Of a DNA stretch of 64,000 bases, positions 5,734-50,408 are shown one piece after another. The position numbers and the translations under genes were made by a program. A model generated the notes under the pieces. It saw only the letters and a program-made list of their open reading frames with translations, did not search any database and was not told where the DNA came from. Where the stretch lies: positions 1,982-65,981 of the forward strand of contig CAZRFD010000026.1 in NCBI GenBank assembly GCA_964599085.1, written 5' to 3'. Source of the stretch: an uncultured Enterobacterales bacterium (GTDB taxonomy: Bacteria > Myxococcota_A > UBA796 > UBA2385). Numbering within the stretch: position 1 is the first letter of the stretch; each line of letters begins with the position of its first letter.

Positions 5734-7182
5734 TCAGCGCGACAGCCAGCCCTTGCGGTGCAGGCGCTTGACCTCTGCGCGGGCGCGGGCGAGGTCGTCT
5801 TCGAGCCGGGCGCGCATGTCGTCGGAGGCGGCCAGCTCGGCGTTCTTCTTCTCTACATCCGCTTGCAGCGAGGCGATCCGCTCGTTGGCCGTCTCCAGGT
5901 CGTCGGCGGCCTGGGCGGAGCGGGCGCCGAGCACCGTGATGGCCTGCCGCTTGAAGGAGGCGACCTCGTCGACGGCGCGGGACAGCCGCTCGACCGTCCC
6001 GAGCAGCTGCTGGAGCTGGCCCGTGAGCCGGGCGACCTCCTGGCGCTTGGCGACGGCTTCGGCTTCGGCCCGGGCAGCGCGGTCGTCGGCCGCGATGGCG
6101 CGGGCGTCGGCGGCGGCGGCCCGGGCGGCGAGGTCGGCGGCGCGGCTCAGCGGACCGGGGGGCGCCCGGTGCGATGCGGGCGCGTCGAGCCAGTCGACGA
6201 GGGAGGCGGCACAGGCGGCCGCGCTGCGCTGGCGGGCCAGGGCCCGGGCGGCCTTGGCACACGCGCGGAGCGCGCTCCCCCCTGCCGCCACGTCGTCGAG
6301 GACAGCGTCCAGGACGTCTTCGATGTCTCCGGCCCAGGCGGCGCCGGCCAGGGCTTCGTCCACGGCGGAGTCCGCGGCACAGAGCACGGGCAGCCCGGCG
6401 GCGAGGTAGTCGGCGTGGCGGAAGCCCAGGGCGAGCTGGCGTTCGGGGTTGTCGGCCATCCAGTCCAGGGCGGCCGTGGCCCCGGCCCAGGCCTTCTGCA
6501 GCGCGTCCCAGGGCAGGGTCCCGGCGCGCTCCAGGCGGGGGTGGTCGGGGAGGCTGTCGGCATCGCCGTACCAGCGCACGCTGCCGATGCCGCGGCGGTC
6601 GAGGTGGGCCAGCACGCGGTCGAGGCCCTCCCGCGGATCGGCCCAGGGCCAGGCCTGTCCCCCGCCGACGAAGACCGGGGAGGCGGGCCAGCGATGCCGC
6701 AGCGGCTCGCGGCTGGCGATGGGGACCAGCAGGGTCGGGTCGCGGCGCACGTCGACCCCGGCCAAGGCGAGCACACCGAGCCAGGACCAGCGCTGCCGCG
6801 GGCTGCTCACCAGGAAGACGTCGCCGGCGGCGAGCGCGCGCAGCACCGCCGGCGCCGCTTCCGCGAGGGCGCCCTGGAAGGGAGCCTCCAGGAGCCGGGG
6901 CGCGTACAGGTCGACGGCGAGGGGCTTGCCCAGCACGGCGAGCGCGGGCGCGTCCTCGAGCTGCACGCAGACGACGGCGTCCGGGCCCCGCGCCGTCGCC
7001 TTGCGCACGAGGTCGGCGGGCGAGGCGAAGCCGCCGGGCTCGTCCTGATCGCGGGCCAGGTAGCACACGTCGAGGCCGGCCTGCTGCAGCCCCCGGCCGA
7101 GCTGCCAGGCGCGGATCCCGCCGCCGCTCGCCGGGCGGCCGGTGGCGGGGAGGCTTCCGTGGTGGACGACGAGGATGCGCAT
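5734..7182 (-). CDS. Glycosyltransferase (GT-B fold, GT1/GT4-like) with ~150-aa C-terminal coiled-coil extension
   Basis: N-terminal MRILVVHHGSLPATG...GGG and central GT-B sugar-donor region. C-terminus (ARAEAEAVAKRQEVARLTGQLQQLL...LQADVEKKNAELAAS...RARAEVKRLHRKGW) is heptad-like, Ala/Glu/Arg-rich coiled coil. Chosen over overlapping Arg-rich ORFs in other frames. Confidence 0.75.
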   Translation of the reverse strand: MRILVVHHGSLPATGRPASGGGIRAWQLGRGLQQAGLDVCYLARDQDEPGGFASPADLVRKATARGPDAVVCVQLEDAPALAVLGKPLAVDLYAPRLLEAPFQGALAEAAPAVLRALAAGDVFLVSSPRQRWSWLGVLALAGVDVRRDPTLLVPIASREPLRHRWPASPVFVGGGQAWPWADPREGLDRVLAHLDRRGIGSVRWYGDADSLPDHPRLERAGTLPWDALQKAWAGATAALDWMADNPERQLALGFRHADYLAAGLPVLCAADSAVDEALAGAAWAGDIEDVLDAVLDDVAAGGSALRACAKAARALARQRSAAACAASLVDWLDAPASHRAPPGPLSRAADLAARAAAADARAIAADDRAARAEAEAVAKRQEVARLTGQLQQLLGTVERLSRAVDEVASFKRQAITVLGARSAQAADDLETANERIASLQADVEKKNAELAASDDMRARLEDDLARARAEVKRLHRKGWLSR

Positions 7183-7245: not shown

Positions 7246-9393
7246 ATGCCCTCTGCCCGCCGAAGCCGCCGTGACCTGCTGCGCGACTGCGCGATGTACC
7301 TGTCGCGCCGCCTGGGCCGCGGCCTGGCGCCTCCCGACCGGGTCAGCGTCAACCTCACCCTGCGCTGCAACCTGCACTGCACGATGTGCACGACCTGCTA
7401 CGACAGCCCGGAGCTGTCCACCGACGAGGTCAAGGGCATCATCGACCAGACGGCGGCCTGGGGGGTGGAGGTCTTCAACCCGCTGGGCGGCGAGCCCTTC
7501 ATGCGCGCCGACATCGAGGAGATCCTCGCCTACGCCGTGGCCCGGGGCTTCTACGTCACCGTGACCACCAACGGCACCTTGATCACGGAGAAGCGGGCGC
7601 GGGCCATCGCCGCGATCCCGGCGGACCGCCTGCACGTCAACATCAGCCTCGACGGCGACGAGGCCGCCAACGACGCCATCCGCGGGGCGGGCATGTGGAG
7701 GCGGGCGATCACCGGCTACCAGCGGATCCGCGCTGCCGACGCCGCCGCGGGCAACAGCCGCCGCAAGATCCTCGCCAACAGCATCCTGCACGCCGGCGTG
7801 CTCGACCGCTTCGAGGCCATCCTCGACCAGCAGGCCGCGCTCGGCTTCGACGGCGTGCAGATCCTCAACCTGTTCCGCGCCGGTCCGGACGTGCCCGCCG
7901 AGAGCCGCGCGCTGTGGTTCTCCGGCGATCAGCTCGACACGCTCGACGCGCTGGCCGGGCGCCTCGCCCAACGCGCCGAGACCCAGGGGCCCGCCGGCTA
8001 CCGGATCCAGAACGACCCGGGCGCGCTCCGCAAGATCCCGCGGTACTACCGCGACGAGCTGGGACCGCTGGAGGCGCCCTGCTGGGCTGGCTTCAAGGAG
8101 CTGTACATCAACGCCGACGGCGCCGCGATCATGTGCGACGGCCAGCTCGACTTCCTCAAAGGCAGCTTCGGCAGCGTCCGTGAGCAGACCCTGCGCCAGC
8201 TCTGGAGCAGCCCGCTGCTCGCAGAGCGGCGCGCCGTGGTGAAGGCCTGCACGACACCGTGCATCCAGGACTGCTACCTGCGGCAGCAGAGCGACTCGGG
8301 GCGGGAGCTGGTGGCCGACGCCGGACGCCTCGCCGCCGACCAGCTCCGGGCCCGGGTCGCGCGCCTGCGCCGCCGGGTGGAGCACGTGGACGGGGCGGTC
8401 CTGCGGCTGGAGCTGAGCGACGTGACCGACGCGCCCGCGCCGGGCTGCACGACCCCCATGTCCCGCTGGGAGCGCCTGGTGGAGGGGCTGCCGCAGGCCC
8501 CCTCGGCCGAGACCTGGGGTGCGCTGCGCGACCGTGGCTACCTCGACTTCGGGCGGGGCTTCATGGGCTTCGAGATCGTGCGCGCCGTCTGTGCGGACCT
8601 CGTGACGGCGCGCCTGCGCTTCGACACGCTGGCGCTGCGGTGGCGCGGCGAGCCGCTGCTGCACGGCGAGATCGAGCCGATCCTCTCCCACCTGCTCGAC
8701 CACGTGGCGAGGGGCGAGGTGGCGGGTCGGCTGCGCCTGGAGACGAGCGGCCGCTTCTACACCGACCCGCTGCTGGCCCTGGCCGGGCGCCCCGTGCCGC
8801 AGGACATCGTCGTCGACCTGGACCGCTGGGCCGGCTTCGATGGCGGCGGGGCATGGACGCCTGCCGCCGGGCTGCCCCCGGCGCTGCCCCGGCTCGAAGC
8901 CCTGGCCGGGCCCCACACCCGCATCCTGCTGACGGTCCGAGCGACCGCCGACACCGACGCAGCCGCGCTCCGAGCGCTGCGTCCACGCTACGCTCTCGCT
9001 GCGGGCCGCTACCCGGACACGGGCGACCGGGTCATCTTCGCCCGTCGGACCGACCACGATCACTTCCTGGCCAACCGCGACGCCAGGGCCGCGCTCGCTG
9101 CGGTGGCCGACGCCTGGGGAGTCCCCGTAGACCTCGGTGACGAGGACGGCCCGCGGCGCTGCGTTGCGCCTCGGCGCACCCCCACCGTGAGCTGGGACGC
9201 CAAGATCACGCTGTGTCCCCGAGACGTGCAGCTCCAGCAGCGGGTGGGCGAGGTGACCAGTGGCCGCCTCTCCGAGGTGTGGCGGGGCCCCGACCTGGAG
9301 GCCGCCCGGCGGCAGTGTGACGGCAGCGGTGTCCCCGACCGCGCGCTGTGTCGGGACTGCCCGTGGCCGTGGAGTCCGAACCTGCCGGGCTAG
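7246..9393 (+). CDS. Radical SAM / SPASM-domain protein, tandemly duplicated (second radical-SAM-like half has lost the CxxxCxxC cluster motif)
   Basis: First half: CNLHCTMCTTC (Cx3Cx2C), GGEPF, TVTTNGTLI, then SPASM-like cysteines (CWAGF...IMCDG...ACTTPCIQDCY). Second half (from about aa 400): FEIVRAVCADLV...GEPLLHGE...LETSGRF but no Cx3Cx2C, followed by a second SPASM-like tail (RRCVAP...AKITLCPRD...CDGSG...CRDCPW). Possible alternative start at M17 (MYLSRRLG). Confidence 0.8.
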   Translation: MPSARRSRRDLLRDCAMYLSRRLGRGLAPPDRVSVNLTLRCNLHCTMCTTCYDSPELSTDEVKGIIDQTAAWGVEVFNPLGGEPFMRADIEEILAYAVARGFYVTVTTNGTLITEKRARAIAAIPADRLHVNISLDGDEAANDAIRGAGMWRRAITGYQRIRAADAAAGNSRRKILANSILHAGVLDRFEAILDQQAALGFDGVQILNLFRAGPDVPAESRALWFSGDQLDTLDALAGRLAQRAETQGPAGYRIQNDPGALRKIPRYYRDELGPLEAPCWAGFKELYINADGAAIMCDGQLDFLKGSFGSVREQTLRQLWSSPLLAERRAVVKACTTPCIQDCYLRQQSDSGRELVADAGRLAADQLRARVARLRRRVEHVDGAVLRLELSDVTDAPAPGCTTPMSRWERLVEGLPQAPSAETWGALRDRGYLDFGRGFMGFEIVRAVCADLVTARLRFDTLALRWRGEPLLHGEIEPILSHLLDHVARGEVAGRLRLETSGRFYTDPLLALAGRPVPQDIVVDLDRWAGFDGGGAWTPAAGLPPALPRLEALAGPHTRILLTVRATADTDAAALRALRPRYALAAGRYPDTGDRVIFARRTDHDHFLANRDARAALAAVADAWGVPVDLGDEDGPRRCVAPRRTPTVSWDAKITLCPRDVQLQQRVGEVTSGRLSEVWRGPDLEAARRQCDGSGVPDRALCRDCPWPWSPNLPG

Positions 9394-9493
9394 CGTTGTT
9401 CGGCACCGAACAGTGTAAGGCGTTGTGGAGTGCTGCGGGCTTCCAGCCGAACACGGGTAGGCTATCGTCGCCGAACGCTGTTCGGCAGCCGCG
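9394..9493. terminator. Convergent intergenic region with two near-identical palindromes (TGTTCGGCACCGAACA and GCCGAACGCTGTTCGGC) plus a half-site; probable bidirectional terminator or protein-binding site
   Basis: Seen directly between the converging stops of the radical-SAM gene (9393) and the NACHT gene (9494). GTTCGG/CCGAAC arms recur three times within about 90 nt. Coordinates approximate. Confidence 0.35.
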
Positions 9494-11437
9494 TCAACCC
9501 CTGGTGTGCGGGGGGCGCAGCAGGCCGTCCTCGGGCGTGTAGCAGACGCCGTGTTCGTCGACGACGCGCCACTGCAGCCCATGCGGGATCCGGTCGACGT
9601 CGGTGTCGACCAGGAAGACCGTGCGGGCGATCGGTGCCGGTGCCGGCTGCGGACTGCCCAGCAGTGGGGCGAGGGTGCCGACGTCGGGGCGCTGGCAGAG
9701 GTAGATGGCGGCGATGTCGGGGGAGGGGACCGACAGTGCTGCGCCGGGGGGGAGCTCCGCGACCCGCGTGGCGTCGGCGACGACCCAGTCCGGCCAGGCG
9801 TCGCCGTCGTCGCCACCGCGGAGGCGCCAGACATCGCTGTACACCTCGGCGAGGCGGAGGTGTTCGAGGCGGCGGGCCGCCCGCTCGGCGAACAGCTCGT
9901 CGCCGAGGCGGGCGGCGAGCGCGGGCTGTTCGTCGCCCAGCACGTCGAGGAGGAGGGCGACGGTGGTGCCGCCGGCCGACCGGAAGATCCACCGGCGCAG
10001 CTCGCCGGCTGCGCGGTCGGCGCGGGCCGGGTCCGCCCAGGCCGCCCGCAGGCGATCGAGGAAGGCCGAGGCGGCGAGCCAGTCCTGCAGCAGCAGGTGG
10101 GCGAAGGCCACGCGGTCGTGGTCGCGGGGGACCAGCAGGCCCGAGCGGCGCACGGTCCCGTCGAGCAGGGCCCGGGCGACACCGTCGGGGTCGGTGGGAT
10201 GCCCCGCCGCGGTCACCAGCCTGTCGGCGTGGCGCGAGATGGTCTGCCGCGCGCGCTCGCGGGACCAGGTGGTGCCCACCTGGAGCTGGTCGACCGGGTC
10301 GTCGTCGGTGCCGCTGGACGAGTCCAGGGCCGTGCCGTCGAGGTCCGCGATGTCGGCGCGGCTGGCCCCCCACACCCGACGGCGGTTCATGGTCAGCGCC
10401 AGCTCCTGCAGGAGCCGGCGGCGGGCGGAGAGCGACAGTGCCGCGACGAGGGCCGGTCCGGTCTCGACGAGCACGGCGTCGACGACGCGGCCGAGGAGCT
10501 CGCTGCGACGCCGGGGCAGCAGGCCGAAGCGTCGATGGACCAGCGCCAGCAGCGTGAGAAGCAGCGGGTTGCCGGCGACGAAGGCCATGCCGGGGTCGGC
10601 GTCGATGGCCGACAGCAGCGCCGAGGAGAGGCGGTCGGCGTCATCGGGCGTGCGCCAGCGGTGCCAGCGCAGCGTCAGGGCGGCCCGGGCCTGGGGCGAC
10701 AGCGGCGTGATGCGGGCGGTGACGAGGTCGGTCGCCGTGGCGCCCTCGGCCAGGGGGACCTCGGCGGTGCCGCGCGGACGACTGGTGAGCAGGAAGCTGG
10801 ACCGTGGGTAGCGGGCCATGCCGTCGAGCAAGGCGGCGCGGAGTCCGCGGCGGAGCGTGGTGTCGGCCACCTCGTCCCAGCCATCGACCAGCATCATGAG
10901 CTGGCCGGCAGCACCCATGGCGTCGATCCGCTCCCGCAGCCCCGCGGGCCAGTCGGGGGCAGCGCTGAGCAGGCCGACCAGGGCGTCCCAGGTGTCGGTG
11001 TCGTCGGTGATCGGCAGATCGCGGAGGATGATCGGCAGCGGGATCAGGACGCCGATGCGCGCGTGCAGGGCGTTGCGGGCACGCTCGGCCAGCGTCCAGG
11101 ACAGCCACTGCACGAAGGTGGACTTGCCGGTGCCGGCGGTGCCCAGCAGCAGCACCCGCTTCCGGGCGGCCACCAGCAGCTCAAGCTGGTCGGTGCGGCC
11201 GCGGCGGGTGCCTCCATCGCCACCGGGCTGCTCCCAGTCCACGGAGGGCGGCACGTAGAGCTGGTCGATGGGGAAGTCTGCCCGCTCGTCGGCCCGGTCC
11301 AGGGCCAGCGTGTTGACGGTGCGGAAGCGCCGCCGCAGGGCGAGCAACCACGCGAGCACGGGCTCGTCGTTGTCCCGGTCGAGGAAGCGGTCGTACTCGG
11401 CCGGGGCGACGGGAGGCAGGGGCGGCCAGGTCGTCAC
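9494..11437 (-). CDS. NACHT-family STAND NTPase (no recognisable effector or repeat-sensor domain)
   Basis: GTG start overlaps the KAP gene stop (GTGA). Walker A VLLLGTAGTGKST, Walker B LMMLVDGWDEV, sensor-1 FLLTSRP, NACHT winged-helix motif VAFAHLLLQDWLAA. About 95 aa precede the P-loop and about 200 aa of unassigned C-terminus follow. ORF-track N-terminal extension (9494..12010) rejected because it overlaps the upstream KAP gene. Confidence 0.8.
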   Translation of the reverse strand: MTTWPPLPPVAPAEYDRFLDRDNDEPVLAWLLALRRRFRTVNTLALDRADERADFPIDQLYVPPSVDWEQPGGDGGTRRGRTDQLELLVAARKRVLLLGTAGTGKSTFVQWLSWTLAERARNALHARIGVLIPLPIILRDLPITDDTDTWDALVGLLSAAPDWPAGLRERIDAMGAAGQLMMLVDGWDEVADTTLRRGLRAALLDGMARYPRSSFLLTSRPRGTAEVPLAEGATATDLVTARITPLSPQARAALTLRWHRWRTPDDADRLSSALLSAIDADPGMAFVAGNPLLLTLLALVHRRFGLLPRRRSELLGRVVDAVLVETGPALVAALSLSARRRLLQELALTMNRRRVWGASRADIADLDGTALDSSSGTDDDPVDQLQVGTTWSRERARQTISRHADRLVTAAGHPTDPDGVARALLDGTVRRSGLLVPRDHDRVAFAHLLLQDWLAASAFLDRLRAAWADPARADRAAGELRRWIFRSAGGTTVALLLDVLGDEQPALAARLGDELFAERAARRLEHLRLAEVYSDVWRLRGGDDGDAWPDWVVADATRVAELPPGAALSVPSPDIAAIYLCQRPDVGTLAPLLGSPQPAPAPIARTVFLVDTDVDRIPHGLQWRVVDEHGVCYTPEDGLLRPPHTRG

Positions 11438-12813
11438 CGGGGCCGCTCCTCTCCGAGGTCCGCGGCTTCGACGGGGGCGGTCGGTGCGGGCGCTGGCGCG
11501 GCGCTGCGGCGAGTCGGCTCCCGACCCTGGAGCAGGCGGTACAGCTCCTGCTGGCGCGGGGTGGGGTGTCGCCGGACGAGGCGCGCGGCCCGAAACACCG
11601 ACACGTCCCCGGGATCGTGGAAGGTGGTGCCTTCTTCCGCCGTGAGCAGCGCGGTCCCGGTCGCGGGGTCCGCGGGTGCGATCCGGTCGGGCACGGTCAG
11701 CCCGGCGAAGACCGCGTGCCGGCGCTTCAGCACGGGCCCCTCTTCCGAGAACGCGTGGATCTCGGCCCAGAAGGCGGGGTTGGCTTCCAGCACCCGGTAG
11801 ATGGCGGGGTGGAAGGTCTGCAGCGCCTGGATGGTGCTGGCCAGCGAGATGTCGGGCGCTGCCCCGCCGAAGGTCCGGCGGTAGCCGTCGACGCGGCCGT
11901 GCAGCTCGACCATGAAGCGCTTGAGCTTGCGGGGGTTGGGCGGGAGGAAGTCCAGCGCGTCCTGGAGTTGGGCGATCTGCGCAGCGGCGCCGTCGCCGTC
12001 CGGCCAGCACGCCGACAGCAGGGGGCGCAGGTCGGGGGCCAGCGGCAGCGAGCGGACCGACTGGAAGAGCTTGTCGCTGTACTCGGCGGCGTCCAGCTCG
12101 GCCCGGGCCAGGCTGGCGGCGTCCGCGGCCGGGAAGAGCTTGCGCTGCAGGGCGCGGACGACGGCGCGCCGGTCGGCGGCGATCACGAAGACGCAGTTGT
12201 CGGCGTTGAGGTAGAGCTTGAGCCCCTCCAGCAGGCGGACGACGGCGTCGTCCCCGCAGCGGTCCAGGTCGTCGATCAGCACCACCAGCTTGCTGTGGTC
12301 GTCGGTCAGGGCGGCGATGGCCTGCTGGAAGGCGCTGCGGAAGGCTTCGCTGGTGAGCGGCACCGCGAAGCTGGACTGCTCGATGCGCTCGCCCTCGGCC
12401 CGGGCCGTCGCCACGACACCGTCGCGCTTGCTGCCGAGGCCTGAGAGCGTGTTGGCGAGGTCTTCGAGGAGGCGCAGGCCGGTGTAGGCCGTCACCGTGC
12501 TGAGCTTGCCGGCTTCATCCCAGGCCCGCCGCGACAGCGCGAGCTGGTCGCGGATGGAGTGGAGGAGCGCGACGGCCGGCTGGGCCTCGAACTGGTGGCG
12601 CCAGGCTTCGAAGAAGACGACCGTGCACTTGCGCGAGGTGTGGGGCAGCCGTTCGCCGAGCATGCGCAGGAAGCTGGTCTTGCCCGCACCCCAGTCGCCG
12701 TGGATGCCGAGCACGTAGGGGGGCGTGCAGGTGGCGATGAGATCGGCGATCTCGTCGGCGAGGGGGCCGCGGCCGAGGCGGTCTTCTGTCGTCGGTTCGT
12801 CGTTGAGCAGCAC
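11434..12813 (-). CDS. KAP-family P-loop NTPase (PifA / Kidins220 family)
   Basis: GTG start (VLLNDEP...) with GGAG about 9 nt upstream, 23 nt after the upstream gene stop. Walker A LGIHGDWGAGKTSFLRML. KAP-diagnostic Walker B VVLIDDLDRC. The Arg/Pro-rich 233-aa N-terminal extension of ORF 11434..13512 overlaps the upstream gene and is rejected. Confidence 0.8.
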   Translation of the reverse strand: MLLNDEPTTEDRLGRGPLADEIADLIATCTPPYVLGIHGDWGAGKTSFLRMLGERLPHTSRKCTVVFFEAWRHQFEAQPAVALLHSIRDQLALSRRAWDEAGKLSTVTAYTGLRLLEDLANTLSGLGSKRDGVVATARAEGERIEQSSFAVPLTSEAFRSAFQQAIAALTDDHSKLVVLIDDLDRCGDDAVVRLLEGLKLYLNADNCVFVIAADRRAVVRALQRKLFPAADAASLARAELDAAEYSDKLFQSVRSLPLAPDLRPLLSACWPDGDGAAAQIAQLQDALDFLPPNPRKLKRFMVELHGRVDGYRRTFGGAAPDISLASTIQALQTFHPAIYRVLEANPAFWAEIHAFSEEGPVLKRRHAVFAGLTVPDRIAPADPATGTALLTAEEGTTFHDPGDVSVFRAARLVRRHPTPRQQELYRLLQGREPTRRSAAPAPAPTAPVEAADLGEERPR

Positions 12814-12836
12814 GGCAGGGACTCCAGGCGGGCAAC

Positions 12837-14192
12837 TTACCGCAGCAGCGGCGAGTGGCGCCGCAGGGCGTCGATCTCGCGCAGCAAGGCCTTGTGCCGT
12901 GGGAAGCGGCGGCGCATCGCCATCAGCGGGGCTTCGGCCTGGGGATCGTCGGCGGCGACACCGGCTTCGACGAGGGCGACGGTGAGCGCGCCGATGCGGG
13001 TGTAGGCGTCGCGCGCGCGGGCAGCGATCACGGCGCCGGCGAGCTCGATCAGCTCGTTGGCGGCGGAGATGCGCCAGGCGACGGCGTCGGTCAGCCAGGT
13101 GGGGTGCTGGGCGATCACCCGGTCCATGAGCTGCGACCAGCCGGGCGGGACGGGGTCCGGTGGGCGGGGTCGCCAGCGGCCGTCGTCGTCGGTGGCCCGC
13201 CAGATGCGCGAGACCAGCAGCGCTTCGTCGAGGTCGGCGCGCTGGGTCCCGACCCGCAGCAGGAAGGGGATCACCTGGGTGGCGGGGTGCTGGGTATCGG
13301 TCCACCAGGACCGGCGCTCGGCGGCCTGCAGGCGGGCCAGGGGCAGCTCGGCGTCGCCGCAGAGCAGCTCGATGCGGACCTGCAGGTCGGGGGCGATGGG
13401 GCGCTCGTCGGCGTAGGCGGCCTCCAGCTCCTCGGCGAACAAGCCCCCGGCGTGGGTGCCCGCGGCATCCCAGACCATGCAGAGGCCGGCGGTGCACAGC
13501 CGGGTCCGCCACACCTCGCGCCAGGCGCGGTGGGCGGCGTCGACGCGACCCAGGGCGGCGGCGGCCGTGCCCTCGCGCAGGCGGAGCTGCAGGCGGTGTC
13601 GGGGCCAGTACAGGCTGCGGGCGCCGCTGCTGGCGGCGCGGAGCAGCTCTTCGTGGCGCCCCTCCTCCTGCAGGGCGTCGAGCCAGGCCAGCCAGACGTC
13701 GATCTCGTCCGACTGCCGGGCCAGGCTGGCCAGCCCGTCCGCTCCCAGGTCCAGGCGGAGGGCTTCCCGGAGCAGCCGGCCGCGGTCGGACTCGTGGTGC
13801 CGCCAGCGCCCGCCCCAGTCGCCGAGCGCCCGGGTCCAGCCGGGCAGGGTCGCGGTCAGATCCGGCGGCGGTGCGGGCACGAGCCGGATGACATCGTGCA
13901 GCGACAGCGTGGGGCAGAGGTCCAGCACCTCGAGGAAGGCGCCCTCGATGGCTCGTACGCGCTGGCGCCGCGGGTGATCCTCCCAGGCGGCACGCACGAG
14001 GGCTGCGCTGCAGCGCTTGATGTCGTCTTCGTGGTGGAGCAGCAGGCCGGGCTCGGCGCCGCGCAGGCCGGCGAGGATCGCCGTGGAGATCGACCCGACC
14101 CGTGGCCAGTGCCGCACGCCGATGGCGGACTCCAGCGCGGCAAGGCGTTCGCGGAGGGCCTGCTCCCAGGCCTGGCGGGAGGGGTCCGACAT
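12837..14192 (-). CDS. Hypothetical all-helical protein (Leu/Ala/Arg-rich, TPR/HEAT-like by composition), first gene of the KAP-NACHT operon
   Basis: ATG (MSDPSRQAWEQALRERLAALES...) lies 8 nt after the dapB stop. 451 aa with no recognisable motif. The ORF-track start at 14330 would overlap dapB by 130 nt. Confidence 0.6.
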   Translation of the reverse strand: MSDPSRQAWEQALRERLAALESAIGVRHWPRVGSISTAILAGLRGAEPGLLLHHEDDIKRCSAALVRAAWEDHPRRQRVRAIEGAFLEVLDLCPTLSLHDVIRLVPAPPPDLTATLPGWTRALGDWGGRWRHHESDRGRLLREALRLDLGADGLASLARQSDEIDVWLAWLDALQEEGRHEELLRAASSGARSLYWPRHRLQLRLREGTAAAALGRVDAAHRAWREVWRTRLCTAGLCMVWDAAGTHAGGLFAEELEAAYADERPIAPDLQVRIELLCGDAELPLARLQAAERRSWWTDTQHPATQVIPFLLRVGTQRADLDEALLVSRIWRATDDDGRWRPRPPDPVPPGWSQLMDRVIAQHPTWLTDAVAWRISAANELIELAGAVIAARARDAYTRIGALTVALVEAGVAADDPQAEAPLMAMRRRFPRHKALLREIDALRRHSPLLR

Positions 14193-14200
14193 CGGGCTGC

Positions 14201-14830
14201 TCAGGGGCGGTACAGACCGGGGGGCTGGGTCATGAGCCAGCGCGCGTGGCGCACGGCGCCGATGGCGAAGACCTCGCGTCGGGTGGCGACGTGCTTGAGC
14301 TCGAGCCGCTCGCCTGGACCGGCCAGCCACACGGTGTGCTCGCCGACGGTGTCGCCCAGCCGCAGGCTGTGCCAGGGCACGTCGGGCCGGCCGGTGGCGG
14401 CGATCAGGCGCTTCGCCGTGCCGCTGGGCGCGTCCTTCTTGTGGGCGTGGTGGGCTTCGACCACTTCGATGGACCAGCCCTGTGGCAGCCGCGGGACGAG
14501 CTGCGCGAGGACGTCGGCCAGCAGTGGCACCCCGGCGGAGAAGTTGGGGACGATGGCGACCGGCGCGCGCGCCGCGTAGGCGGCGAGGGCGTCCAGCGGG
14601 AGCGCGCCGGTGGTCCCGACGAGGAGCGCCTGGCCGTCGAGGCGAGCCAGCAGCGCGGCGGTGCCGGCCGCCGAGCTGACGTCGATGACGAGGTCACAGG
14701 GCGGCAGGAAGCCGTCGCGGCCGACGGGGCCGGCGTAGTCTTCGCCCAGCTCGTGGACGATGAGCCGACCGAGGCGGCCGGTGGCGCCGTGTACGGCGAC
14801 CGGCCGACGGTCCTTCTGGGGGCGGGTCAT
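14201..14830 (-). CDS. dapB: 4-hydroxy-tetrahydrodipicolinate reductase (short form)
   Basis: N-terminal NAD(P) fold VAVHGATGRLGRLIV. Signature EAHHAHKKDAPSGTA. 209 aa. Confidence 0.85.
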   Translation of the reverse strand: MTRPQKDRRPVAVHGATGRLGRLIVHELGEDYAGPVGRDGFLPPCDLVIDVSSAAGTAALLARLDGQALLVGTTGALPLDALAAYAARAPVAIVPNFSAGVPLLADVLAQLVPRLPQGWSIEVVEAHHAHKKDAPSGTAKRLIAATGRPDVPWHSLRLGDTVGEHTVWLAGPGERLELKHVATRREVFAIGAVRHARWLMTQPPGLYRP

Positions 14831-14873
14831 GGGAGGCTCCCGGGCGTGGGTCCTTCCCCCTCCCTAAGCGCCC

Positions 14874-15767
14874 CTACTCCAGGCCGTCGAGCAGACCCGC
14901 GGGGGGCGATGCACCGGCCGCCAGGGGAAGCCGGACCGCGGCGTCGCACAGGCCCATGGCCGCCATGCCGGCCTTGACCGGGACGGGGTTGGTGTCCGAG
15001 AACAGCCAGCGCACCACCGGCTGCAGACGCTGGCGCAGCGCGCGCAGGGTCGCGACATCGCCGGTCCGTGCGGCGTCGCACCAGCGGACGGTCATGCGCG
15101 GGGCGAGGTTGCTGACCACGCTGATCACCCCGTGGCCGCCCATGGCGACCAACGGTGCGAAGGTGAAGTCGTCCCCGGACAGCAGGGTCACGGCTGCGCC
15201 GGAGGCGGCCCGCGCTTCGAGGGACTCCAGCAGCTCCAGGCCGTAGCCGACGTCGCCGGTGGCTTCCTTGACCGCGACGACGCCGGGGGTGGCACACAGC
15301 TCGGCGAGCTGGCCACAGGGCAGCCGCTGTCCGGTGCGGCCGGGCACGTGGTAGAGCACGACCGGCAGGCCAGCGGAGCATGCGCGCTGCACGTGGGCGG
15401 CGAGGCCGCGGGGGTTCGGCTTGTTGTAGTAGGGGAAGACGACGAGGCCGGCGTCGACCCCAAGCTCGGCAGCGGCGTCGATGTTGGCGAGGGTGGCGGC
15501 CGTGCTGTTGGAGCCCACGCCGGCGATGACCGGGACCTTGCGGCCGGTCTCTGCGTGGTGGCGCGCCGCGGCGTCCACGGCGGTGCGGACCACGGCGGCC
15601 CACTCGGTCGGTGACAGGGTGGGGGTCTCGCCGGTGGTGCCGCAGGGCACGAGCCCGGCGATCCCGGCGTCGAGCTGGCGGTCGCACAAGGCGCGGGTGG
15701 CGTCGAGGTCGACGTCGCCGGCGCGGAAGGGGGTGACCAGGGCGGTCAGGACGCCGGTGAGCTGCAC
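14874..15767 (-). CDS. dapA: 4-hydroxy-tetrahydrodipicolinate synthase
   Basis: TALVTPF, GTTGE, YNKP, and the active-site lysine in KEATGD. 297 aa. Confidence 0.9.
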   Translation of the reverse strand: MQLTGVLTALVTPFRAGDVDLDATRALCDRQLDAGIAGLVPCGTTGETPTLSPTEWAAVVRTAVDAAARHHAETGRKVPVIAGVGSNSTAATLANIDAAAELGVDAGLVVFPYYNKPNPRGLAAHVQRACSAGLPVVLYHVPGRTGQRLPCGQLAELCATPGVVAVKEATGDVGYGLELLESLEARAASGAAVTLLSGDDFTFAPLVAMGGHGVISVVSNLAPRMTVRWCDAARTGDVATLRALRQRLQPVVRWLFSDTNPVPVKAGMAAMGLCDAAVRLPLAAGASPPAGLLDGLE

Positions 15768-15782
15768 GCCGGACTCCAGGGT

Positions 15783-46121: not shown

Positions 46122-49100
46122 TCAGTGGTTCTCGCTGTTGTCCGCAGCGTTCGAGCAGTTGACGTCGTCGGCGTCTACGCTACCGTCGCTGTCGTTGTCG
46201 ACACCGTCGTTGCACGCCGCCCCCGCCGGGTCGAAGCCGTCGTCTTCGTCTTCGACCCACACCGAGGTGCAGATGGGGTCGTCGAGGTCGGTCCAGCCGT
46301 CGCTGTCGTTGTCGAGCCCGTCGTTGCACTGGGTCGAGGGGTCGACCTCTGACTTGGTCGAGCCCGTCAGGCAGCCGGGGTCGTCGGCGTCGATGAAGCC
46401 GTCGGCGTCATCGTCGACGCCGTTGTTGCACTCCCCGCCCGCCAGGCCGTCGTCCTCGAACAGCTCGTCTGCCGAGGCGCAGACCGGATCGTCGGTGTCG
46501 GTCCAGCCGTCGCCGTCGTTGTCCAGCCCGTCGCTGCACTCCGGCGTGTGGGTCTCGTCGTCATCAAACGCGGTCGCACAGCCGGGGTCTTCGGCGTCGA
46601 CGAGGGAGTCGGCGTCGTCGTCCGTGAGGTTGTTGCAGGTGAAGCTGGCTTCTTCTCCGATCTCGGTCGTGCCCCAGGCGCAGTCGGGATCGTCGGTGTC
46701 GACCCAGCCGTCACCGTCGTCGTCGCTGCCGTTGCTGCACTCACCCGTGTCGCCGTCGCTCTCCGCGTTGTCGAGGGCGTCCACGCAGTCGACGTCGTCG
46801 GCGTCCGTCGCGCCGTCGCGATCGTTGTCGAGGCCGTCGTTGCACTCGGTGTCGCCGTGGCCGGCTTCGGCGGTGGCCGCGACGCAGTCGGGGTCGTCGG
46901 TGTCGATCCAACCGTCCGCGTCGTTGTCGCTGCCGTCGGAGCAGCTCGACGCCAGGTCGGCTTCCGACGTGTCGTCGCCGCTCAGGCAGCCGCTGTCGTC
47001 GGCGTCGATGAGCCCATCGCCGTCGTCGTCGAGGGCGTTGTTGCAGGCGAAGCTGGTGAACCCGAGCTCTTCGCCCCAGATCCCGCAGTCGGGATCGTCG
47101 TCGTCGGCCCAGCCGTCGTCGTCGTTGTCCGTGCCGTCGTCACAGGGCATGGCGTGGCTGGACTCCGAGTTGTCGTAGCCGTCGACGCAGTCAGTGTCGT
47201 CGGCGTCGATGGCGCCGTCCACGTCGTTGTCCAGCCCATCCGAGCACGCGGTGTCGGTCCGGGTGCCGTCTTCGGCGGCACCGTCCAGGCAGTCCGTGTC
47301 CGAGCTGTCGATCCAGCCGTCACCGTCGTCGTCGGAGCGGTTGCTGCAGCTCAGGCTGCTCGACTCTTCGTCGTCGTCGAGTGAGTCGTCGCAGTCGATG
47401 TCCCGCGAGTCGACGTCGCCGTCGGCGTCGTTGTCGATGAAGTCGTTGCAGGCATAGCCGCTGATGCCGGCTTCTCCACCGTAGATCCAGCAGTCCACGT
47501 CGTAGTCGTCGGTCCAGCCGTCGCCGTCGTCGTCGACACCGTTGTCGCAGGAGCTGGCGACCAGGGCGGTCTCGGTGTCTTCCCAGGGCACGTCGCAGTC
47601 GGGGTCGTCGGCGTCGATGGCGCCGTCGCCGTCGTTGTCCAGCTCGTCGTTGCAGGCGAAGCTGGTGAAGCCGAGCTCGTTGCCGCCGGTGAGGCAGTCG
47701 AGATCGTCGGCGTCCACCCATCCGTCGCCGTCGTCGTCTTCGCCGTTGGCGCAGTCATCGGCATCCGGGTCTTCGACCGGATCGGAGGCGGACTCGCAGC
47801 CGGTGTCCCACGCGTCGTAGACGAAGTTGCCGTCGTTGTCGATGCCGTCGTTGCACTCACCCGTTCCGAAGCCGCGCTCGGTGATGCCGCCGGCGTCGCA
47901 GTCGGGGTCGTCGAGGTCGGTCCAGCCATCCCCGTCGTTGTCGGTGGCGTCTTCGCACTGGCCGAGGTCTTCGTCGTCGACCAGGCCGTCGGTGCAGGCA
48001 GGGTCCAGCGAGTCGATGAAGCCGTCGCCGTCGTTGTCGACGAAGTCGTTGCACTCGGTGTCCTCGAGCGCACCGTCCTCGACGCCGAAGGCACAGTCGG
48101 GATCGTCGCCATCCACCCAGCCGTCGAGGTCGTTGTCGGCCCCGTCGGCGCAGGTGTCGGTCGACTCGGCCTCGAGGGTGTCCGAGGCGTCCTGGCAGTC
48201 GAGGTCCTCGCCGTCGATGGCGTCGTCGAGGTCGTCGTCGATGCCGTTGTTGCACTCGGTGTCGCCGTAGCCGACCTCTGCGTCGCCGCTGGCGCAGTCG
48301 GGATCATTGGCGTCGATCCAGCCGTCGCCGTCGTTGTCCAGCTCGTCTTCACAGTCTGTGATCGGCGAGCTCTCGTCGTCGTCGTAGCCGTCGGTGCAGC
48401 CAGGGTCGTCGGCGTCGACGAGGCCGTTGCCGTCGTTGTCGTTGCCGTCGTTGCACTCGTAGACCGACGTCGCCGGGGATTCGGTGCTGGTGTCGTAGTC
48501 AGCGAAGCAGGCCGGGTCGTCGAGGTCGGCCCAGCCGTCGCCGTCGTTGTCGACACCGTCGCCGCAGGCGGCGTCGCCCTCGTAGTCGTCGCTGCCGTCG
48601 CTGCAGTCGACGTCGTCGGCGTCCACCGAGCCATCCTTGTCGTCGTCGACGCCGTTGTTGCAGGCGTAGCTGGTGTCGATGTCGACTTCTTCGTCGCCGC
48701 TGCTGCAGTCGGGATCGTCGGCGTCGGTCCAGCCGTCGTCGTCATCATCGAGGCCATTGTGGCAGGCGTCGACCTCGGCGTCGTCGGCAGCTTCCAGGCA
48801 GTCGGGATCGACGGTGTCGATGGCGCCGTCGCCGTCGTTGTCGCTGCCGTCGTTGCACTCGGTGCTGCCGAAGCCCGCTTCGGCGTCACCGGTCACGCAG
48901 TCGGGGTCGCTGCTGTCGATCCAGCCGTCACCATCGTCGTCTTCGCCGTTGGTGCACTGGTCGACCTCGTCGTCGTCGCTGGCGCTGCTGCAGCCGGAGT
49001 CTTCGGAGTCGACCGCCCCGTCGCCGTCGTCGTCGACGCCGTTGTTGCACTGGGGCCCGTCGGTGTCGAAGCCCAGCTCGTTGGCGCCGCTGCTGCAGTC

Positions 49101-50408
49101 GGGGTCGTCGGCGTCGACCCAGCCGTCGCCGTCGTTGTCTTCGGCGTCGTTGCAGTCGTCGGCCTCGATCCGGTCGTCGGCGCTGGTGCAGTCCGGGTCC
49201 AGGGCATCGATCAAGCTGTCGCCGTCGTTGTCGATCCCGTCGCTGCACTGGGTCGTGGCTTCGAAGCCGCCCTCGTCATCGCCATAGGGACTGTCGCAGC
49301 CCAGGTCGTCGAGGTCGGTCCAGCCGTCCCCGTCGTTGTCGAGCTCGTCTTCGCAGGCGTTGAGCTCTGTGTCGTCGAAGGCGTCTTCACAGGCCGGGTC
49401 GTCGGCGTCGATGTCGCCGTCGTCGTCGTTGTCGACGCCGTCGTTGCACTCGGTGCTGCCGTAGCCGACCTCGTCGTCGCCGCCGTCGGCGCAGTCGGGA
49501 TCGTCCATGTCGATGTAGCCGTCGCCGTCGTCGTCGAGCTCGTTCTCGCACGGGGGCGAGGACTCGTCGTCGTCGAGTGCGCTGTCACAGTGCGGGTCGT
49601 CGCCGTCGATGTACCCGTCGCTGTCGTTGTCGACGCCGTCGTTGCACTGCGAGCTGCCGTAGCCCAGCTCTTCATCGCCGACGCCACAGTCGGGGTCGGC
49701 GAGGTCGGTCCAGCCGTCGCCGTCGTCGTCTTCGCCGTTGTCGCAGGGGCTGCTCTCGACGTCGTCGGTCGGGCCGTCGCAGTCGGGGTCGTCAACATCG
49801 ACCAGTCCGTCGTCGTCGTTGTCCAGACCGTCGTTGCACTCTGTGTCGCCGTAGCCGAGCTCTTCATCGCCCAGATCGCAGTCGGGGTCGTCGGCGTCGG
49901 TGTAGCCGTCGCCGTCATCGTCTTCGCCGTTCTCGCACATCGTGATCGGGTCGTCGAGGAGAGCGAGCGGGATGGTGACATCGACGACCTGGTCGGTCTG
50001 GAAGGACAGCGGACCGTAGGTCTCGGACTGCAGGGTCTGCGTCGTGCCCTGCCACCCCTGGACGGAGAGGGCGAAGGGGGAGTCGTTGTCGCCGGCCGCC
50101 AGCTCGATGACCGGGAAGCCCGAGGAGGCCACGATGAAGTGGACCACCAGCTCCAGGTCGTCGTCGTCTTCGATGGCGTTCGCCAGCGAGCTGCGGCTGT
50201 CGAGCTCGCCGGCTTCCAGCGGGTTGCCCGACGCGTCGACGTAGGGTTCGCTGGGATCGAGGATCAGGTAGAGATCGTCTGTGGCTTCGGCGATGGCGGC
50301 GTCGTCGCCGTCGAAGCTGATCTTGATCGTGGTGCGCGGATCCGGTGGCTGCTTGCAGGCGGCCAGGGCCAGGATGACGGGAAGGGTCACGGCGAGCTGT
50401 CGAGTCAT
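46122..50408 (-). CDS. Giant lipoprotein made of ~45 tandem Cys/Asp-rich repeats (C-x-D/N-G-x-D-(D/N)-D-G-D-G-x-x-D-x-x-D-P-D-C; thrombospondin-type-3 / MopE-like Ca2+/metal-binding)
   Basis: Start MTRQLAVTLPVILALAACKQPPD (lipobox LAAC), ATGA overlap with the upstream PEGA gene. From about aa 230 to 1428 alternating units CDNGEDDDGDGWTDLADPDC and ECNDGVDNDxDGxIDxDDPxC. Overlapping plus-strand poly-Ser/Ala ORFs are antisense artefacts. Confidence 0.8.
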   Translation of the reverse strand: MTRQLAVTLPVILALAACKQPPDPRTTIKISFDGDDAAIAEATDDLYLILDPSEPYVDASGNPLEAGELDSRSSLANAIEDDDDLELVVHFIVASSGFPVIELAAGDNDSPFALSVQGWQGTTQTLQSETYGPLSFQTDQVVDVTIPLALLDDPITMCENGEDDDGDGYTDADDPDCDLGDEELGYGDTECNDGLDNDDDGLVDVDDPDCDGPTDDVESSPCDNGEDDDGDGWTDLADPDCGVGDEELGYGSSQCNDGVDNDSDGYIDGDDPHCDSALDDDESSPPCENELDDDGDGYIDMDDPDCADGGDDEVGYGSTECNDGVDNDDDGDIDADDPACEDAFDDTELNACEDELDNDGDGWTDLDDLGCDSPYGDDEGGFEATTQCSDGIDNDGDSLIDALDPDCTSADDRIEADDCNDAEDNDGDGWVDADDPDCSSGANELGFDTDGPQCNNGVDDDGDGAVDSEDSGCSSASDDDEVDQCTNGEDDDGDGWIDSSDPDCVTGDAEAGFGSTECNDGSDNDGDGAIDTVDPDCLEAADDAEVDACHNGLDDDDDGWTDADDPDCSSGDEEVDIDTSYACNNGVDDDKDGSVDADDVDCSDGSDDYEGDAACGDGVDNDGDGWADLDDPACFADYDTSTESPATSVYECNDGNDNDGNGLVDADDPGCTDGYDDDESSPITDCEDELDNDGDGWIDANDPDCASGDAEVGYGDTECNNGIDDDLDDAIDGEDLDCQDASDTLEAESTDTCADGADNDLDGWVDGDDPDCAFGVEDGALEDTECNDFVDNDGDGFIDSLDPACTDGLVDDEDLGQCEDATDNDGDGWTDLDDPDCDAGGITERGFGTGECNDGIDNDGNFVYDAWDTGCESASDPVEDPDADDCANGEDDDGDGWVDADDLDCLTGGNELGFTSFACNDELDNDGDGAIDADDPDCDVPWEDTETALVASSCDNGVDDDGDGWTDDYDVDCWIYGGEAGISGYACNDFIDNDADGDVDSRDIDCDDSLDDDEESSSLSCSNRSDDDGDGWIDSSDTDCLDGAAEDGTRTDTACSDGLDNDVDGAIDADDTDCVDGYDNSESSHAMPCDDGTDNDDDGWADDDDPDCGIWGEELGFTSFACNNALDDDGDGLIDADDSGCLSGDDTSEADLASSCSDGSDNDADGWIDTDDPDCVAATAEAGHGDTECNDGLDNDRDGATDADDVDCVDALDNAESDGDTGECSNGSDDDGDGWVDTDDPDCAWGTTEIGEEASFTCNNLTDDDADSLVDAEDPGCATAFDDDETHTPECSDGLDNDGDGWTDTDDPVCASADELFEDDGLAGGECNNGVDDDADGFIDADDPGCLTGSTKSEVDPSTQCNDGLDNDSDGWTDLDDPICTSVWVEDEDDGFDPAGAACNDGVDNDSDGSVDADDVNCSNAADNSENH
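46400..49950 (-). repeat. Intragenic tandem array of ~75-bp (25-aa) Asp/Cys-rich repeat units
   Basis: Repeats seen in translation; DNA-level identity is imperfect (degenerate codons). Coordinates approximate. Confidence 0.7.

What the first reader, a model, noticed from the sequence alone, without database searches (positions are those of the whole stretch)
9494..14192. Three-gene operon: helical protein + KAP-family P-loop NTPase + NACHT STAND NTPase, a candidate undescribed two-NTPase defence or signalling system
Seen in sequence: three co-directional genes. The first is an all-helical hypothetical protein (12837..14192). The second is a protein with the KAP-diagnostic GxxxxGKT and hhhhDDLDRC motifs (11434..12813). 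The third carries full NACHT signatures (Walker A/B, TSRP, FxHxxxQDWLAA; 9494..11437). The KAP stop and NACHT start overlap as GTGA. The KAP gene starts 23 nt after the first gene, with GGAG upstream. Established knowledge: the KAP family includes PifA, the F-plasmid phage-T7 exclusion protein. Bacterial NACHT proteins (bNACHT / Avs-like STANDs) are antiviral. Inference: a combined KAP + NACHT + helical-partner module is not a described defence system. Neither NTPase carries a recognisable effector (nuclease, protease, TIR, etc.) or repeat sensor, so the helical protein may supply the sensor or scaffold in trans.
Basis: partly seen in the sequence, partly recalled or inferred. Interest (0 to 1): 0.85.

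Follow-up and report, generated by a model that had tools for sequence, protein, structure and literature searches.

The report
Conserved KAP plus NACHT-LRR gene pair
The three genes are real, but only two of them (a KAP ATPase and an NLR-like NACHT protein) form a conserved, translationally coupled pair found in many bacterial phyla. This pair is probably an undescribed immune module, while the "helical" gene belongs to the neighbouring lysine-biosynthesis operon.

Summary

The three-gene interpretation fails. The helical protein is a TPR-like solenoid with few relatives. It always lies directly after dapA-dapB in a lineage-specific syntenic block, and three relatives have it without KAP or NACHT; one has a Phd/PIN toxin-antitoxin pair at that position.

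KAP+NACHT is a conserved two-gene cassette. I found about 23 distinct loci from at least seven phyla, including cultured Gemmata obscuriglobus. In each, a short soluble KAP gene (about 400-510 aa) is followed at once by a homologous NACHT gene, often with a 4-nt overlap. Only the dapAB lineage has the helical gene alongside. Fifty-nine longer, more distant KAPs have no NACHT neighbour.

Most partner NACHT proteins carry C-terminal leucine-rich repeats, which is true NLR architecture. The window copy has lost nearly all of them.

Neither PADLOC nor NCBIfam models the pair, and no searched paper describes it.

Indirect evidence favours an immune role: family membership, presence/absence variation, fast NACHT evolution, composition shifts and occasional RM/TA/recombinase neighbours. 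No function has been tested.

The parts
9494..11437 (-). NACHT (STAND) NTPase gene, 647 aa. It has a short N-terminal region of about 85 aa, a full NBD-HD1-WHD-HD2 module, and a C-terminal tail of about 120 aa that is an LRR-depleted remnant.
   Evidence: Pfam NACHT E=1e-11. The AF2 core has pLDDT 75-95, and the best Foldseek PDB matches are NLRC4, NOD2, NLRP3 and NAIP5. Orthologues sit next to KAP in about 23 loci.
11120..11143 (-). NACHT Walker A (G99-S106, GTAGTGKS)
   Evidence: Invariant columns G99, G102, G104, K105 and S106 in the alignment of 16 partner NACHTs.
10871..10885 (-). NACHT Walker B (D185-E189, DGWDE)
   Evidence: Invariant D185, G186, D188 and E189.
10097..10099 (-). Conserved winged-helix histidine H447 (FAHLLLQDW). 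It is the counterpart of the NLRC4 H443-type autoinhibition residue.
   Evidence: Invariant H447. The equivalence to NLRC4 H443 is inferred from the motif position and from the Kibby et al. preprint.
11434..12813 (-). Short soluble KAP-family P-loop NTPase gene, 459 aa
   Evidence: Pfam KAP_NTPase E=1e-28. No hydrophobic segment is present (maximum 19-residue Kyte-Doolittle score 1.12). More than 120 close clusters exist, and all 11 that I checked are NACHT-paired.
12673..12699 (-). KAP Walker A (G39-S47, GDWGAGKTS)
   Evidence: Invariant G39, D40, W41, G42, G44, K45 and S47 in 17 KAPs.
12256..12273 (-). KAP Walker B / family signature (D181-C186, DDLDRC)
   Evidence: Invariant D181-C186.
11434..11437 (-). 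GTGA overlap of the KAP stop codon and the NACHT start codon (translational coupling)
   Evidence: The same 4-nt overlap occurs in L012, L013, L015, L016, L021 and L183.
12837..14192 (-). CONTEXT, not part of the module: TPR-like all-helical protein (451 aa) that ends the dapA-dapB syntenic block
14201..15782 (-). CONTEXT: dapB (14201..14830) and dapA (14874..15782), immediately upstream and co-directional
   Evidence: Pfam DapB_C E=4.6e-30 and DHDPS E=2.4e-69.

Best explanation
The functional unit is a two-gene cassette. A short, soluble KAP-family NTPase gene is translationally coupled to a downstream gene for an NLR-like NACHT NTPase. In most family members the NACHT protein ends in leucine-rich repeats.

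In this genome's lineage the cassette sits at a synteny break just after a conserved dapA-dapB-TPR operon. The helical TPR-like gene belongs to that operon, not to the cassette.

The most likely function is a nucleotide-switch conflict (anti-phage or anti-mobile-element) system. The proposed steps, all inferred, are:
1. The NACHT C-terminal repeat region senses an invader-derived ligand.
2. The NACHT module exchanges nucleotide and oligomerises.
3. Because it has no N-terminal effector domain, it signals through its obligate KAP partner. KAP acts either as the executor or as a gating co-switch, comparable to sensor/helper NLR pairs.

The window copy keeps all catalytic motifs in both proteins but has lost nearly all of its LRRs.

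Shown here: gene structure, family membership, conserved pairing, LRRs in the family, and independence from the helical gene. Inferred: the immune role, the physical complex and the direction of signalling.
For: Pairing:
- Every full-length short KAP found in GTDB genomes has a homologous NACHT ORF starting at or overlapping its stop (10 of 10 evaluable). None of 59 longer, more distant KAPs does.
- More pairs come from metagenomes (L103-L107, L111) and from look-ups (L011-L013).
- Gemmata obscuriglobus has the pair (L183).
- The reciprocal check holds: P0013, the best hit to the window NACHT outside its own cluster in the protein database, is a NACHT-LRR preceded by a KAP.
- KAP and NACHT identities co-vary across loci.
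- Junctions are 4-nt overlaps or very short gaps.

Helical gene independence.

LRRs in partner NACHTs: LRR_4 down to E=7.7e-45 and LRR_6 at E=1.5e-36.

Full NACHT fold resembling animal NLRs.

Indirect support for a conflict role:
- KAP matches PDC-S20, QatA and PifA models.
- Single-gene KAP proteins fused to putative effector regions are antiphage, and the one tested needs Walker B (preprint 10.1101/2025.10.07.681051).
- Bacterial NACHT proteins are antiphage (Kibby et al. preprint).
- Related genomes differ in presence or absence at the same site, and L008/L009 carry a Phd/PIN TA pair there.
- A 203-nt deletion splits the NACHT gene in one of two loci that are 98% identical over most of the aligned DNA.
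- NACHT evolves faster (51-62% identity) than dapB (68-80%) and the helical gene (64-78%) in the same genome pairs.
- The cassette's GC3 deviates from its neighbours in L106, L012 and L020.
- L020 has a type I RM system plus a FitA/PIN pair directly upstream, L013 has a serine recombinase downstream, and L181 has DUF433/DUF5615 nearby.
Against: - There is no experimental evidence for any function.
- Most neighbours of the cassette are housekeeping genes, and no strong defence-island enrichment appeared in about 13 contexts.
- The paired subfamily was not found on IMG/VR viral contigs or PLSDB plasmids.
- Neither protein has a recognisable effector domain.
- In the window the cassette's GC3 matches its neighbours, and it seems to have been inherited vertically for a long time in this lineage. 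This is also compatible with a domesticated cellular role.
- The window's C-terminal sensor region could not be modelled (pLDDT below 50).
Confidence: 0.6

Rival explanations
1. One reading: a three-gene system in which the helical protein supplies a sensor or scaffold in trans to the two NTPases.
For: The three genes are co-directional and tightly spaced. The order helical-KAP-NACHT recurs in four resolved related loci: the window/L001, L005/L006, L010 and L185. The helical protein is TPR-like, a fold often used as a STAND sensor. The NACHTs of this lineage are LRR-poor.
Against: The helical gene is kept at similar conservation in relatives that lack KAP/NACHT (L002, L003, L007-L009). It is always coupled to dapB, with an 8-nt gap or a 4-nt overlap. 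No helical homologue occurs at any KAP-NACHT locus screened outside this lineage. This includes the LRR-poor L012 and L013. No conserved third gene was found across the family.
Confidence: 0.05
2. KAP+NACHT is a non-immune cellular signalling or regulatory NTPase pair, for example for stress or developmental signalling in bacteria with complex lifestyles.
For: Neighbours are mostly housekeeping genes. The pair has been resident for a long time, apparently by vertical descent, downstream of dapAB in this lineage. It is absent from the phage and plasmid collections searched. Hosts are mainly Planctomycetota, Myxococcota-like, Desulfobacterota and Actinomycetota. No effector domain is present.
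Against: Neither protein has a DNA-binding or other output domain. Distribution is patchy and genomic contexts are not conserved. Close relatives differ in presence, and one allele is decayed. The sensor protein evolves quickly and its LRR number varies. Both domain families have experimentally supported anti-phage members.
Confidence: 0.2
3. Two independent single-gene defence proteins that merely happen to be adjacent in a defence hotspot.
For: Single-gene KAP and single-gene bNACHT defence proteins both exist.
Against: The same orthologous pair, in the same order and with stop/start overlap, recurs in about 23 loci from at least seven phyla with unrelated flanks. Identities co-vary between the two genes. 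Neither protein has its own effector domain.
Confidence: 0.03
4. The window copy is a degenerating remnant that has lost its LRR sensor and no longer functions as the ancestral system did.
For: It has the shortest C-terminus of the family. Pfam finds no LRR, and the orthologue L005 carries an extra LRR-like segment of about 60 aa that the window lacks. Decay is seen elsewhere: the NACHT is split in L016 and the KAP is split in L025.
Against: Both ORFs are intact, with all invariant catalytic residues. GC3 of 0.93-0.94 shows that the coding signature is maintained. The last 70 aa or so are conserved with L005.
Confidence: 0.12

Closest known systems
Bacterial NACHT (bNACHT) / NLR-related antiphage proteins (Kibby et al.; preprint 10.1101/2022.07.19.500537), including the LRR-bearing bNACHT16
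   Same: Both have a central NACHT module with Walker A/B, a TSR sensor motif and the WHD histidine. The fold is closest to NLRC4, NOD2 and NLRP3. C-terminal repeat sensors, including LRRs, occur in the family.
   Different: [quoted passage not shown] Here there is no N-terminal effector, and there is an obligate, translationally coupled KAP partner. No PADLOC or NCBIfam NACHT model matches beyond the P-loop.
KAP-family defence proteins: PifA (F plasmid), QatA of QatABCD, PADLOC candidate PDC-S20, and single-gene KAP-effector fusions (preprint 10.1101/2025.10.07.681051)
   Same: All share the KAP P-loop domain with the GxWGxGKT and DDLDRC signatures. Matches are PDC-S20 at E=5.6e-32, QatA at E=1.3e-31 and PifA at E=2.4e-20. 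Dependence on Walker B has been shown for a KAP defence protein.
   Different: Only the N-terminal half aligns. The QatA equivalog score is 121 bits against a cut-off of 600, and no qatBCD genes are present. The protein has no transmembrane helices, no fused effector region and only about 450 aa. Its partner is a NACHT, which none of those systems has.
Genetically linked sensor/helper NLR pairs of eukaryotes (NAIP-NLRC4; plant paired NLRs). This is a functional analogy only.
   Same: Two linked STAND-like NTPases, one of which carries the LRR sensor. The NACHT fold resembles NLRC4 and NAIP5.
   Different: The partner is a KAP NTPase, not a second NLR. No interaction or hierarchy has been shown. 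No evolutionary relationship between the pairings is implied.
STAND/KAP-centred conflict systems of Kaur, Burroughs, Iyer & Aravind (eLife 2020, 2021)
   Same: They share the theme of NTP-dependent conflict systems enriched in bacteria with complex lifestyles. KAP is recognised there as a possible central NTPase.
   Different: In those systems KAP displaces the STAND NTPase as an alternative, and the systems rely on EAD/Death-like adaptor domains and separate effectors. Here KAP and NACHT co-occur as a pair, with no adaptor or effector genes.

Membership tests
NACHT clade of STAND NTPases (Pfam PF05729) | Profile match above the curated threshold | tested here: met
   45.4 bits against a cut-off of 26.7, E=1e-11, covering 2-165 of 167 profile positions.
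NACHT clade of STAND NTPases (Pfam PF05729) | Walker A GxxGxGKS/T, Walker B DGxDE, sensor-1 TSR and the conserved WHD histidine | tested here: met
   GTAGTGKS, DGWDE, TSRP and FAH447. These residues are invariant across partner NACHTs.
NACHT clade of STAND NTPases (Pfam PF05729) | NBD-HD1-WHD-HD2 fold | tested here: met
   AF2 core pLDDT is 75-95. Foldseek aligns about 500 columns to NLRC4, NOD2, NLRP3 and NAIP5, with E as low as 1.6e-11.
NLR architecture (NACHT + C-terminal LRR) | Leucine-rich repeats C-terminal to the NACHT module | tested here: inconclusive
   Met for family members L019-L023, L025, L181 and L183. For the window protein, Pfam finds no LRR. The C-terminus is modelled at pLDDT below 50. 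A repeat HMM built from L021 was too specific to decide. By eye, only one or two CC-type LRR-like units are visible, conserved with L005.
bNACHT / Avs antiviral STAND proteins | Effector domain fused to the STAND module (nuclease, protease, TIR, SIR2 and others) | tested here: not met
   The N-terminal 85 aa or so match no Pfam, PADLOC or NCBIfam domain. The same holds in 10 partner NACHTs.
bNACHT / Avs antiviral STAND proteins | Protection against phage on expression | not testable with these tools
   This needs an experiment.
KAP family P-loop NTPases (Pfam PF07693) | Profile match above threshold, with the GxWGxGKT and hhhhDDLDRC signatures | tested here: met
   100.9 bits against a cut-off of 20, covering 2-287 of 293 profile positions. 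Signature residues are invariant.
KAP family P-loop NTPases (Pfam PF07693) | Transmembrane helices inserted in or flanking the P-loop domain (typical of many KAPs but not universal) | tested here: not met
   No 19-residue window has a Kyte-Doolittle score above 1.6; the maximum is 1.12.
QatABCD | QatA equivalog score, plus qatB, qatC (QueC-like) and qatD (TatD) neighbours | tested here: not met
   NCBIfam QatA scores 121 bits against a cut-off of 600. The neighbours are NACHT, a TPR-like gene, dapB and a radical SAM gene.
PADLOC PDC-S20 (single-gene KAP candidate) | Full-length match to a PDC-S20 model | tested here: not met
   Only residues 5-221 align to positions 13-233 of 464 (110 bits). 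Other paired KAPs score 71-108 bits, mostly with partial coverage.
PifA | Full-length similarity to the 720-position PifA model | tested here: not met
   70.7 bits, covering only positions 14-234 of 720.

The most novel reading that the evidence does not exclude
KAP+NACHT-LRR is a previously undescribed two-component bacterial NLR immune system that spans several phyla. A true NACHT-LRR receptor without its own effector domain would signal through an obligate soluble KAP NTPase. This would be a prokaryotic counterpart of sensor/helper NLR pairs and a new output route for bacterial NLRs.
Probability: 0.35. Interest if true: 0.8.

Novelty: new variant of a known kind. Interest (0 to 1): 0.62.

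Why it matters
Bacterial NLR-related proteins are studied as the evolutionary roots of animal and plant innate immune receptors. Those characterised so far are mostly single polypeptides that carry their own effector domain.

A widespread cassette that pairs an effector-less NACHT-LRR with a dedicated second NTPase would add a two-protein signalling logic to bacterial NLR biology. It would also give soluble KAP NTPases a concrete partner and role. It would also supply bacterial examples of NACHT-LRR architecture, one of them in the cultured organism Gemmata obscuriglobus.

For genome annotation, the pair is currently invisible to PADLOC v2 and NCBIfam. A two-gene rule (short KAP followed by NACHT) would capture at least about 120 protein clusters.

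Tried and rejected
- The three-gene unit was rejected on comparative synteny.
- I searched for a conserved third gene with an all-against-all BLAST of 85 neighbours from 14 loci. Only one cross-locus match appeared, a divergent 2-TM protein shared by L011 and L013. There is no family-wide third component.
- Defence-island enrichment: aggregated Pfam and PADLOC scans of neighbours gave mostly housekeeping families. One type I RM system, PIN toxins and one recombinase were the exceptions. This is suggestive but not strong.
- Phage or plasmid carriage: IMG/VR gave only distant unpaired KAPs. PLSDB gave only QatA-like N-terminal matches, and the NACHT gave no hit.
- Solved structures by sequence: none for KAP or NACHT.
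The permitted alignment left residues 528-647 at pLDDT below 50.
- An LRR-unit HMM built from L021 was too clade-specific, missing even the genuine LRRs of L019 and L025. It therefore says nothing about the window.
- The promoter/terminator scan found nothing usable in this 74% GC DNA.
Full report
**1. The observation**

The window has about 74% GC, so long spurious ORFs are common. Codon-position GC separates real frames from these. The three proposed genes have GC3 of 0.93-0.94 and GC2 of 0.50-0.54.

The translations contain every motif reported. Pfam gives NACHT at E=1e-11 for 9494..11437 and KAP_NTPase at E=1e-28 for 11434..12813. Nothing matches 12837..14192. The GTGA stop/start overlap and the 23-nt spacer with GGAG are both present.

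The helical ATG lies 8 nt after the stop of dapB (14201..14830), and dapB follows dapA (14874..15782) on the same strand.

The window matches a JGI metagenome contig with the same gene order. The gene upstream of dapA gives a sub-threshold match to TIGR04551. Relatives are labelled only as uncultured 'Deltaproteobacteria' or 'Alphaproteobacteria' MAGs. A Myxococcota-like origin is plausible but I did not establish it.

**2. The helical gene belongs to the dapAB block, not to the NTPases**

A word-indexed search of 5.8 billion proteins found only 11 homologues, at 59-100% identity. Every contig I could read shows the same syntenic block: PMT_2 glycosyltransferase, DUF5989, an 81-aa gene, a 456-aa gene, dapA, dapB, then the helical gene. 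One relative (L005/L006) lacks a called dapA. The helical gene starts within a few bases of the dapB stop, or overlaps it by 4 nt.

KAP and NACHT follow it in the window/L001, L005/L006, L010 and L185. They do not follow it in three other relatives:
- In L002 the next gene is an opposite-strand AhpC-like gene.
- In L003 the next gene is on the opposite strand.
- In L008/L009 a PhdYeFM antitoxin and a PIN toxin occupy that position.

Synteny ends after the helical gene in all of them. The helical gene is therefore the last gene of a conserved core block, and what follows it is variable.

**3. KAP+NACHT is a conserved two-gene cassette**

The KAP has more than 1,300 database relatives. Look-ups of relatives outside the dapAB lineage show KAP followed at once by NACHT, in unrelated surroundings:
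- L012: KAP plus a 752-aa NACHT.
- L013/L014: KAP plus a 667-aa NACHT, followed by a serine recombinase and a DUF3854 gene.
- L011: KAP plus a NACHT cut by the contig end.

I scanned one genome per GTDB species with the KAP alignment and ran HMMs for KAP, NACHT and the helical protein on all ORFs. Every locus with a full-length short KAP has a homologous NACHT ORF at or overlapping the KAP stop: L015-L017 and L019-L025, which is 10 of 10 evaluable. The labelled hosts include Deltaproteobacteria, Desulfobacter, Spirochaetota, Planctomycetota/Phycisphaerales, Actinomycetota, Hydrogenedentota and Gammaproteobacteria.

None of the 59 more distant KAPs has a NACHT neighbour. Their ORFs are mostly about 600-700 aa, and they match mainly the N-terminal part of the profile. 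Helical homologues occur only in the dapAB lineage.

Further pairs came from the metagenome scan (L103-L107, L111). The check also holds from the NACHT side. P0013, the best hit to the window NACHT outside its own cluster in the protein database, is a NACHT-LRR preceded by a 493-aa KAP.

Members sampled across the top 120 KAP hits are all paired (11 of 11): P0039, P0040, P0042, P0044, P0045, P0050, P0053, P0079=L019, P0113=L183, P0144=L103 and P0149=L017. For four of them, the link to a locus rests on matching contig lengths. P0113 is from cultured Gemmata obscuriglobus UQM 2246.

Junctions are 4-nt overlaps in the window, L012, L013, L015, L016, L021 and L183, and very short gaps in most others. 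KAP and NACHT identities co-vary across loci. No third gene is conserved across the family.

**4. Anatomy of the two proteins**

KAP:
- It is about 400-510 aa long.
- Walker A (GDWGxGKTS), Walker B (DDLDRC) and an NPRxxKR motif are invariant.
- A conserved C-terminal region of about 150 aa lies outside the Pfam model.
- It has no hydrophobic segment, so it is soluble, unlike classical transmembrane KAPs.

NACHT:
- A short N-terminal region of about 85 aa has no recognisable effector domain.
- The P-loop, DGxDE, TSR and WHD histidine are invariant.
- The model covers NBD-HD1-WHD-HD2 and aligns best with NLRC4, NOD2, NLRP3 and NAIP5.

At the C-terminus, partners in L019-L023, L025, L181 and L183 carry leucine-rich repeats. 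Pfam gives LRR_4 down to E=7.7e-45 and LRR_6 at E=1.5e-36. L021 has twelve near-identical 23-residue cysteine-containing repeats. The family is therefore NACHT-LRR, the architecture of true NLRs.

The sub-clade holding the window, L005, L012 and L013 is LRR-poor. L012 and L005 still show LxxLxLxxC/N patterns with a 23-residue period, while the window has the shortest tail. Whether the window keeps one or two vestigial units could not be settled.

**5. What it probably does**

No function has been tested; the following is inference. The points below favour a conflict (immune) role.
- Both domain families have experimentally supported antiphage members: bNACHT proteins and KAP proteins, whose activity depends on Walker B.
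- The KAP resembles the PADLOC PDC-S20, QatA and PifA models.
- The cassette is patchily distributed and its genomic contexts are not conserved.
- Related genomes differ in presence or absence at one site, and a toxin-antitoxin pair occupies that site in one relative.
- In a pair of loci that are 98% identical over most of the aligned DNA, one NACHT is split by a 203-nt deletion.
- NACHT diverges faster than dapB and the helical gene in the same genome pairs.
- The cassette's GC3 differs from its neighbours in L106, L012 and L020.
- L020 has a type I RM system and a FitA/PIN pair directly upstream, L013 has a recombinase downstream, and L181 has DUF433/DUF5615 nearby.

These points count against it.
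- Most neighbours are housekeeping genes.
- The paired subfamily is absent from IMG/VR and PLSDB at the sensitivity used.
- No effector domain is recognisable in either protein.
- The cassette has been resident for a long time, apparently by vertical descent, in the window's lineage.

My proposed mechanism has low to moderate confidence. The repeat region senses a ligand and the NACHT oligomerises. The translationally coupled KAP then acts as executor or as a gating co-switch. This is an analogy to sensor/helper NLR pairs and does not imply homology of the pairing.

**6. Comparison with known systems and novelty**

- It is not QatABCD. The QatA score is 121 bits against a cut-off of 600, and there are no qatBCD genes.
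- It is not PifA or PDC-S20, because only the N-terminal half aligns.
- It is not a typical bNACHT or Avs, because it has no fused effector and does have an obligate partner. [quoted passage not shown]
- The Aravind-group papers treat KAP as an alternative to the STAND NTPase, not as its partner.
- Full-text searches for KAP together with NACHT or bNACHT found no description of the pair.

The paper library lacks many subscription-journal articles, and I could not run current DefenseFinder models. 'Undescribed' is therefore provisional.

I rate it a new variant of a known kind: known domains in a new, conserved two-protein arrangement.

**7. Verdict**

- The three-gene interpretation is not supported.
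- The core idea of an undescribed two-NTPase module is supported in narrower and better-defined form, as a KAP plus NACHT-(LRR) cassette.
- Confidence that the cassette is a real conserved unit is about 0.9.
- Confidence that it is an immune system is about 0.55.
- Confidence in the specific signalling model is about 0.25.

Noticed in passing
window 12837-15782 (-); L002-L010, L185: A lineage-specific TPR-like gene is always coupled to dapB (8-nt gap or 4-nt overlap) at the end of a conserved block: PMT_2, DUF5989, an 81-aa gene, a 456-aa gene, dapA, dapB. Only 11 close homologues exist. Its function and its link to lysine/DAP or envelope biosynthesis are unknown.
   Followed up: partly
L008 2151-2776; L009 3858-4483: In one relative, the position right after the helical gene that KAP+NACHT occupies in the window holds a PhdYeFM antitoxin and a PIN toxin. 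The site behaves as a hotspot for accessory conflict genes.
   Followed up: partly
L011 9271-10053 (-); L013 29-853 (-); L015 7244-8026 (-): A gene of about 240-270 aa lies directly upstream of KAP on the opposite strand. By eye, its product has two hydrophobic helices. It is 63-64% identical between L011 and L013, although the other readable neighbours differ. It may be a clade-specific membrane accessory, possibly an effector, of the cassette.
   Followed up: partly
L016 9356-11871 versus L103 9356-12058: Two Desulfobacter-like loci are 98% identical in nucleotide sequence over most of the aligned region, but a 203-nt deletion splits the NACHT gene in L016. In L025 the KAP is split into two ORFs. 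Some cassettes are decaying.
   Followed up: partly
L021, NACHT residues about 635-906: Twelve near-identical 23-residue cysteine-containing LRR units (TNLxxLDLSxCTGVTDLxPLAxL) are present. This suggests recent repeat expansion or homogenisation in an actinobacterial NACHT-LRR.
   Followed up: no
window 9394-9493: The 100-nt spacer between the convergent NACHT and radical SAM genes holds two short palindromes built on GCCGAAC/GTTCGGC. They could form a bidirectional terminator without a T tract, or be a REP-like element.
   Followed up: no
window 7246-9393 (+): A 715-aa radical SAM/SPASM protein is encoded convergently with the NACHT gene. Next to it, at 5734-7182 (-), is a 482-aa protein with no family match. 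This may be a peptide-maturation locus.
   Followed up: no
window 46122-51044 (-): A stop-to-stop ORF of 1,640 codons encodes a product with 25% aspartate (410 of 1,640 residues). The region has strong negative AT skew (-0.30 to -0.38). It is probably a calcium-binding repeat protein.
   Followed up: no
L026-L034, L095-L096: The unpaired KAPs, about 430-670 aa and mostly from Firmicutes and gut MAGs, include two on IMG/VR viral contigs. They may be of the kind shown to be antiphage as KAP-effector fusions in the 2025 preprint.
   Followed up: no
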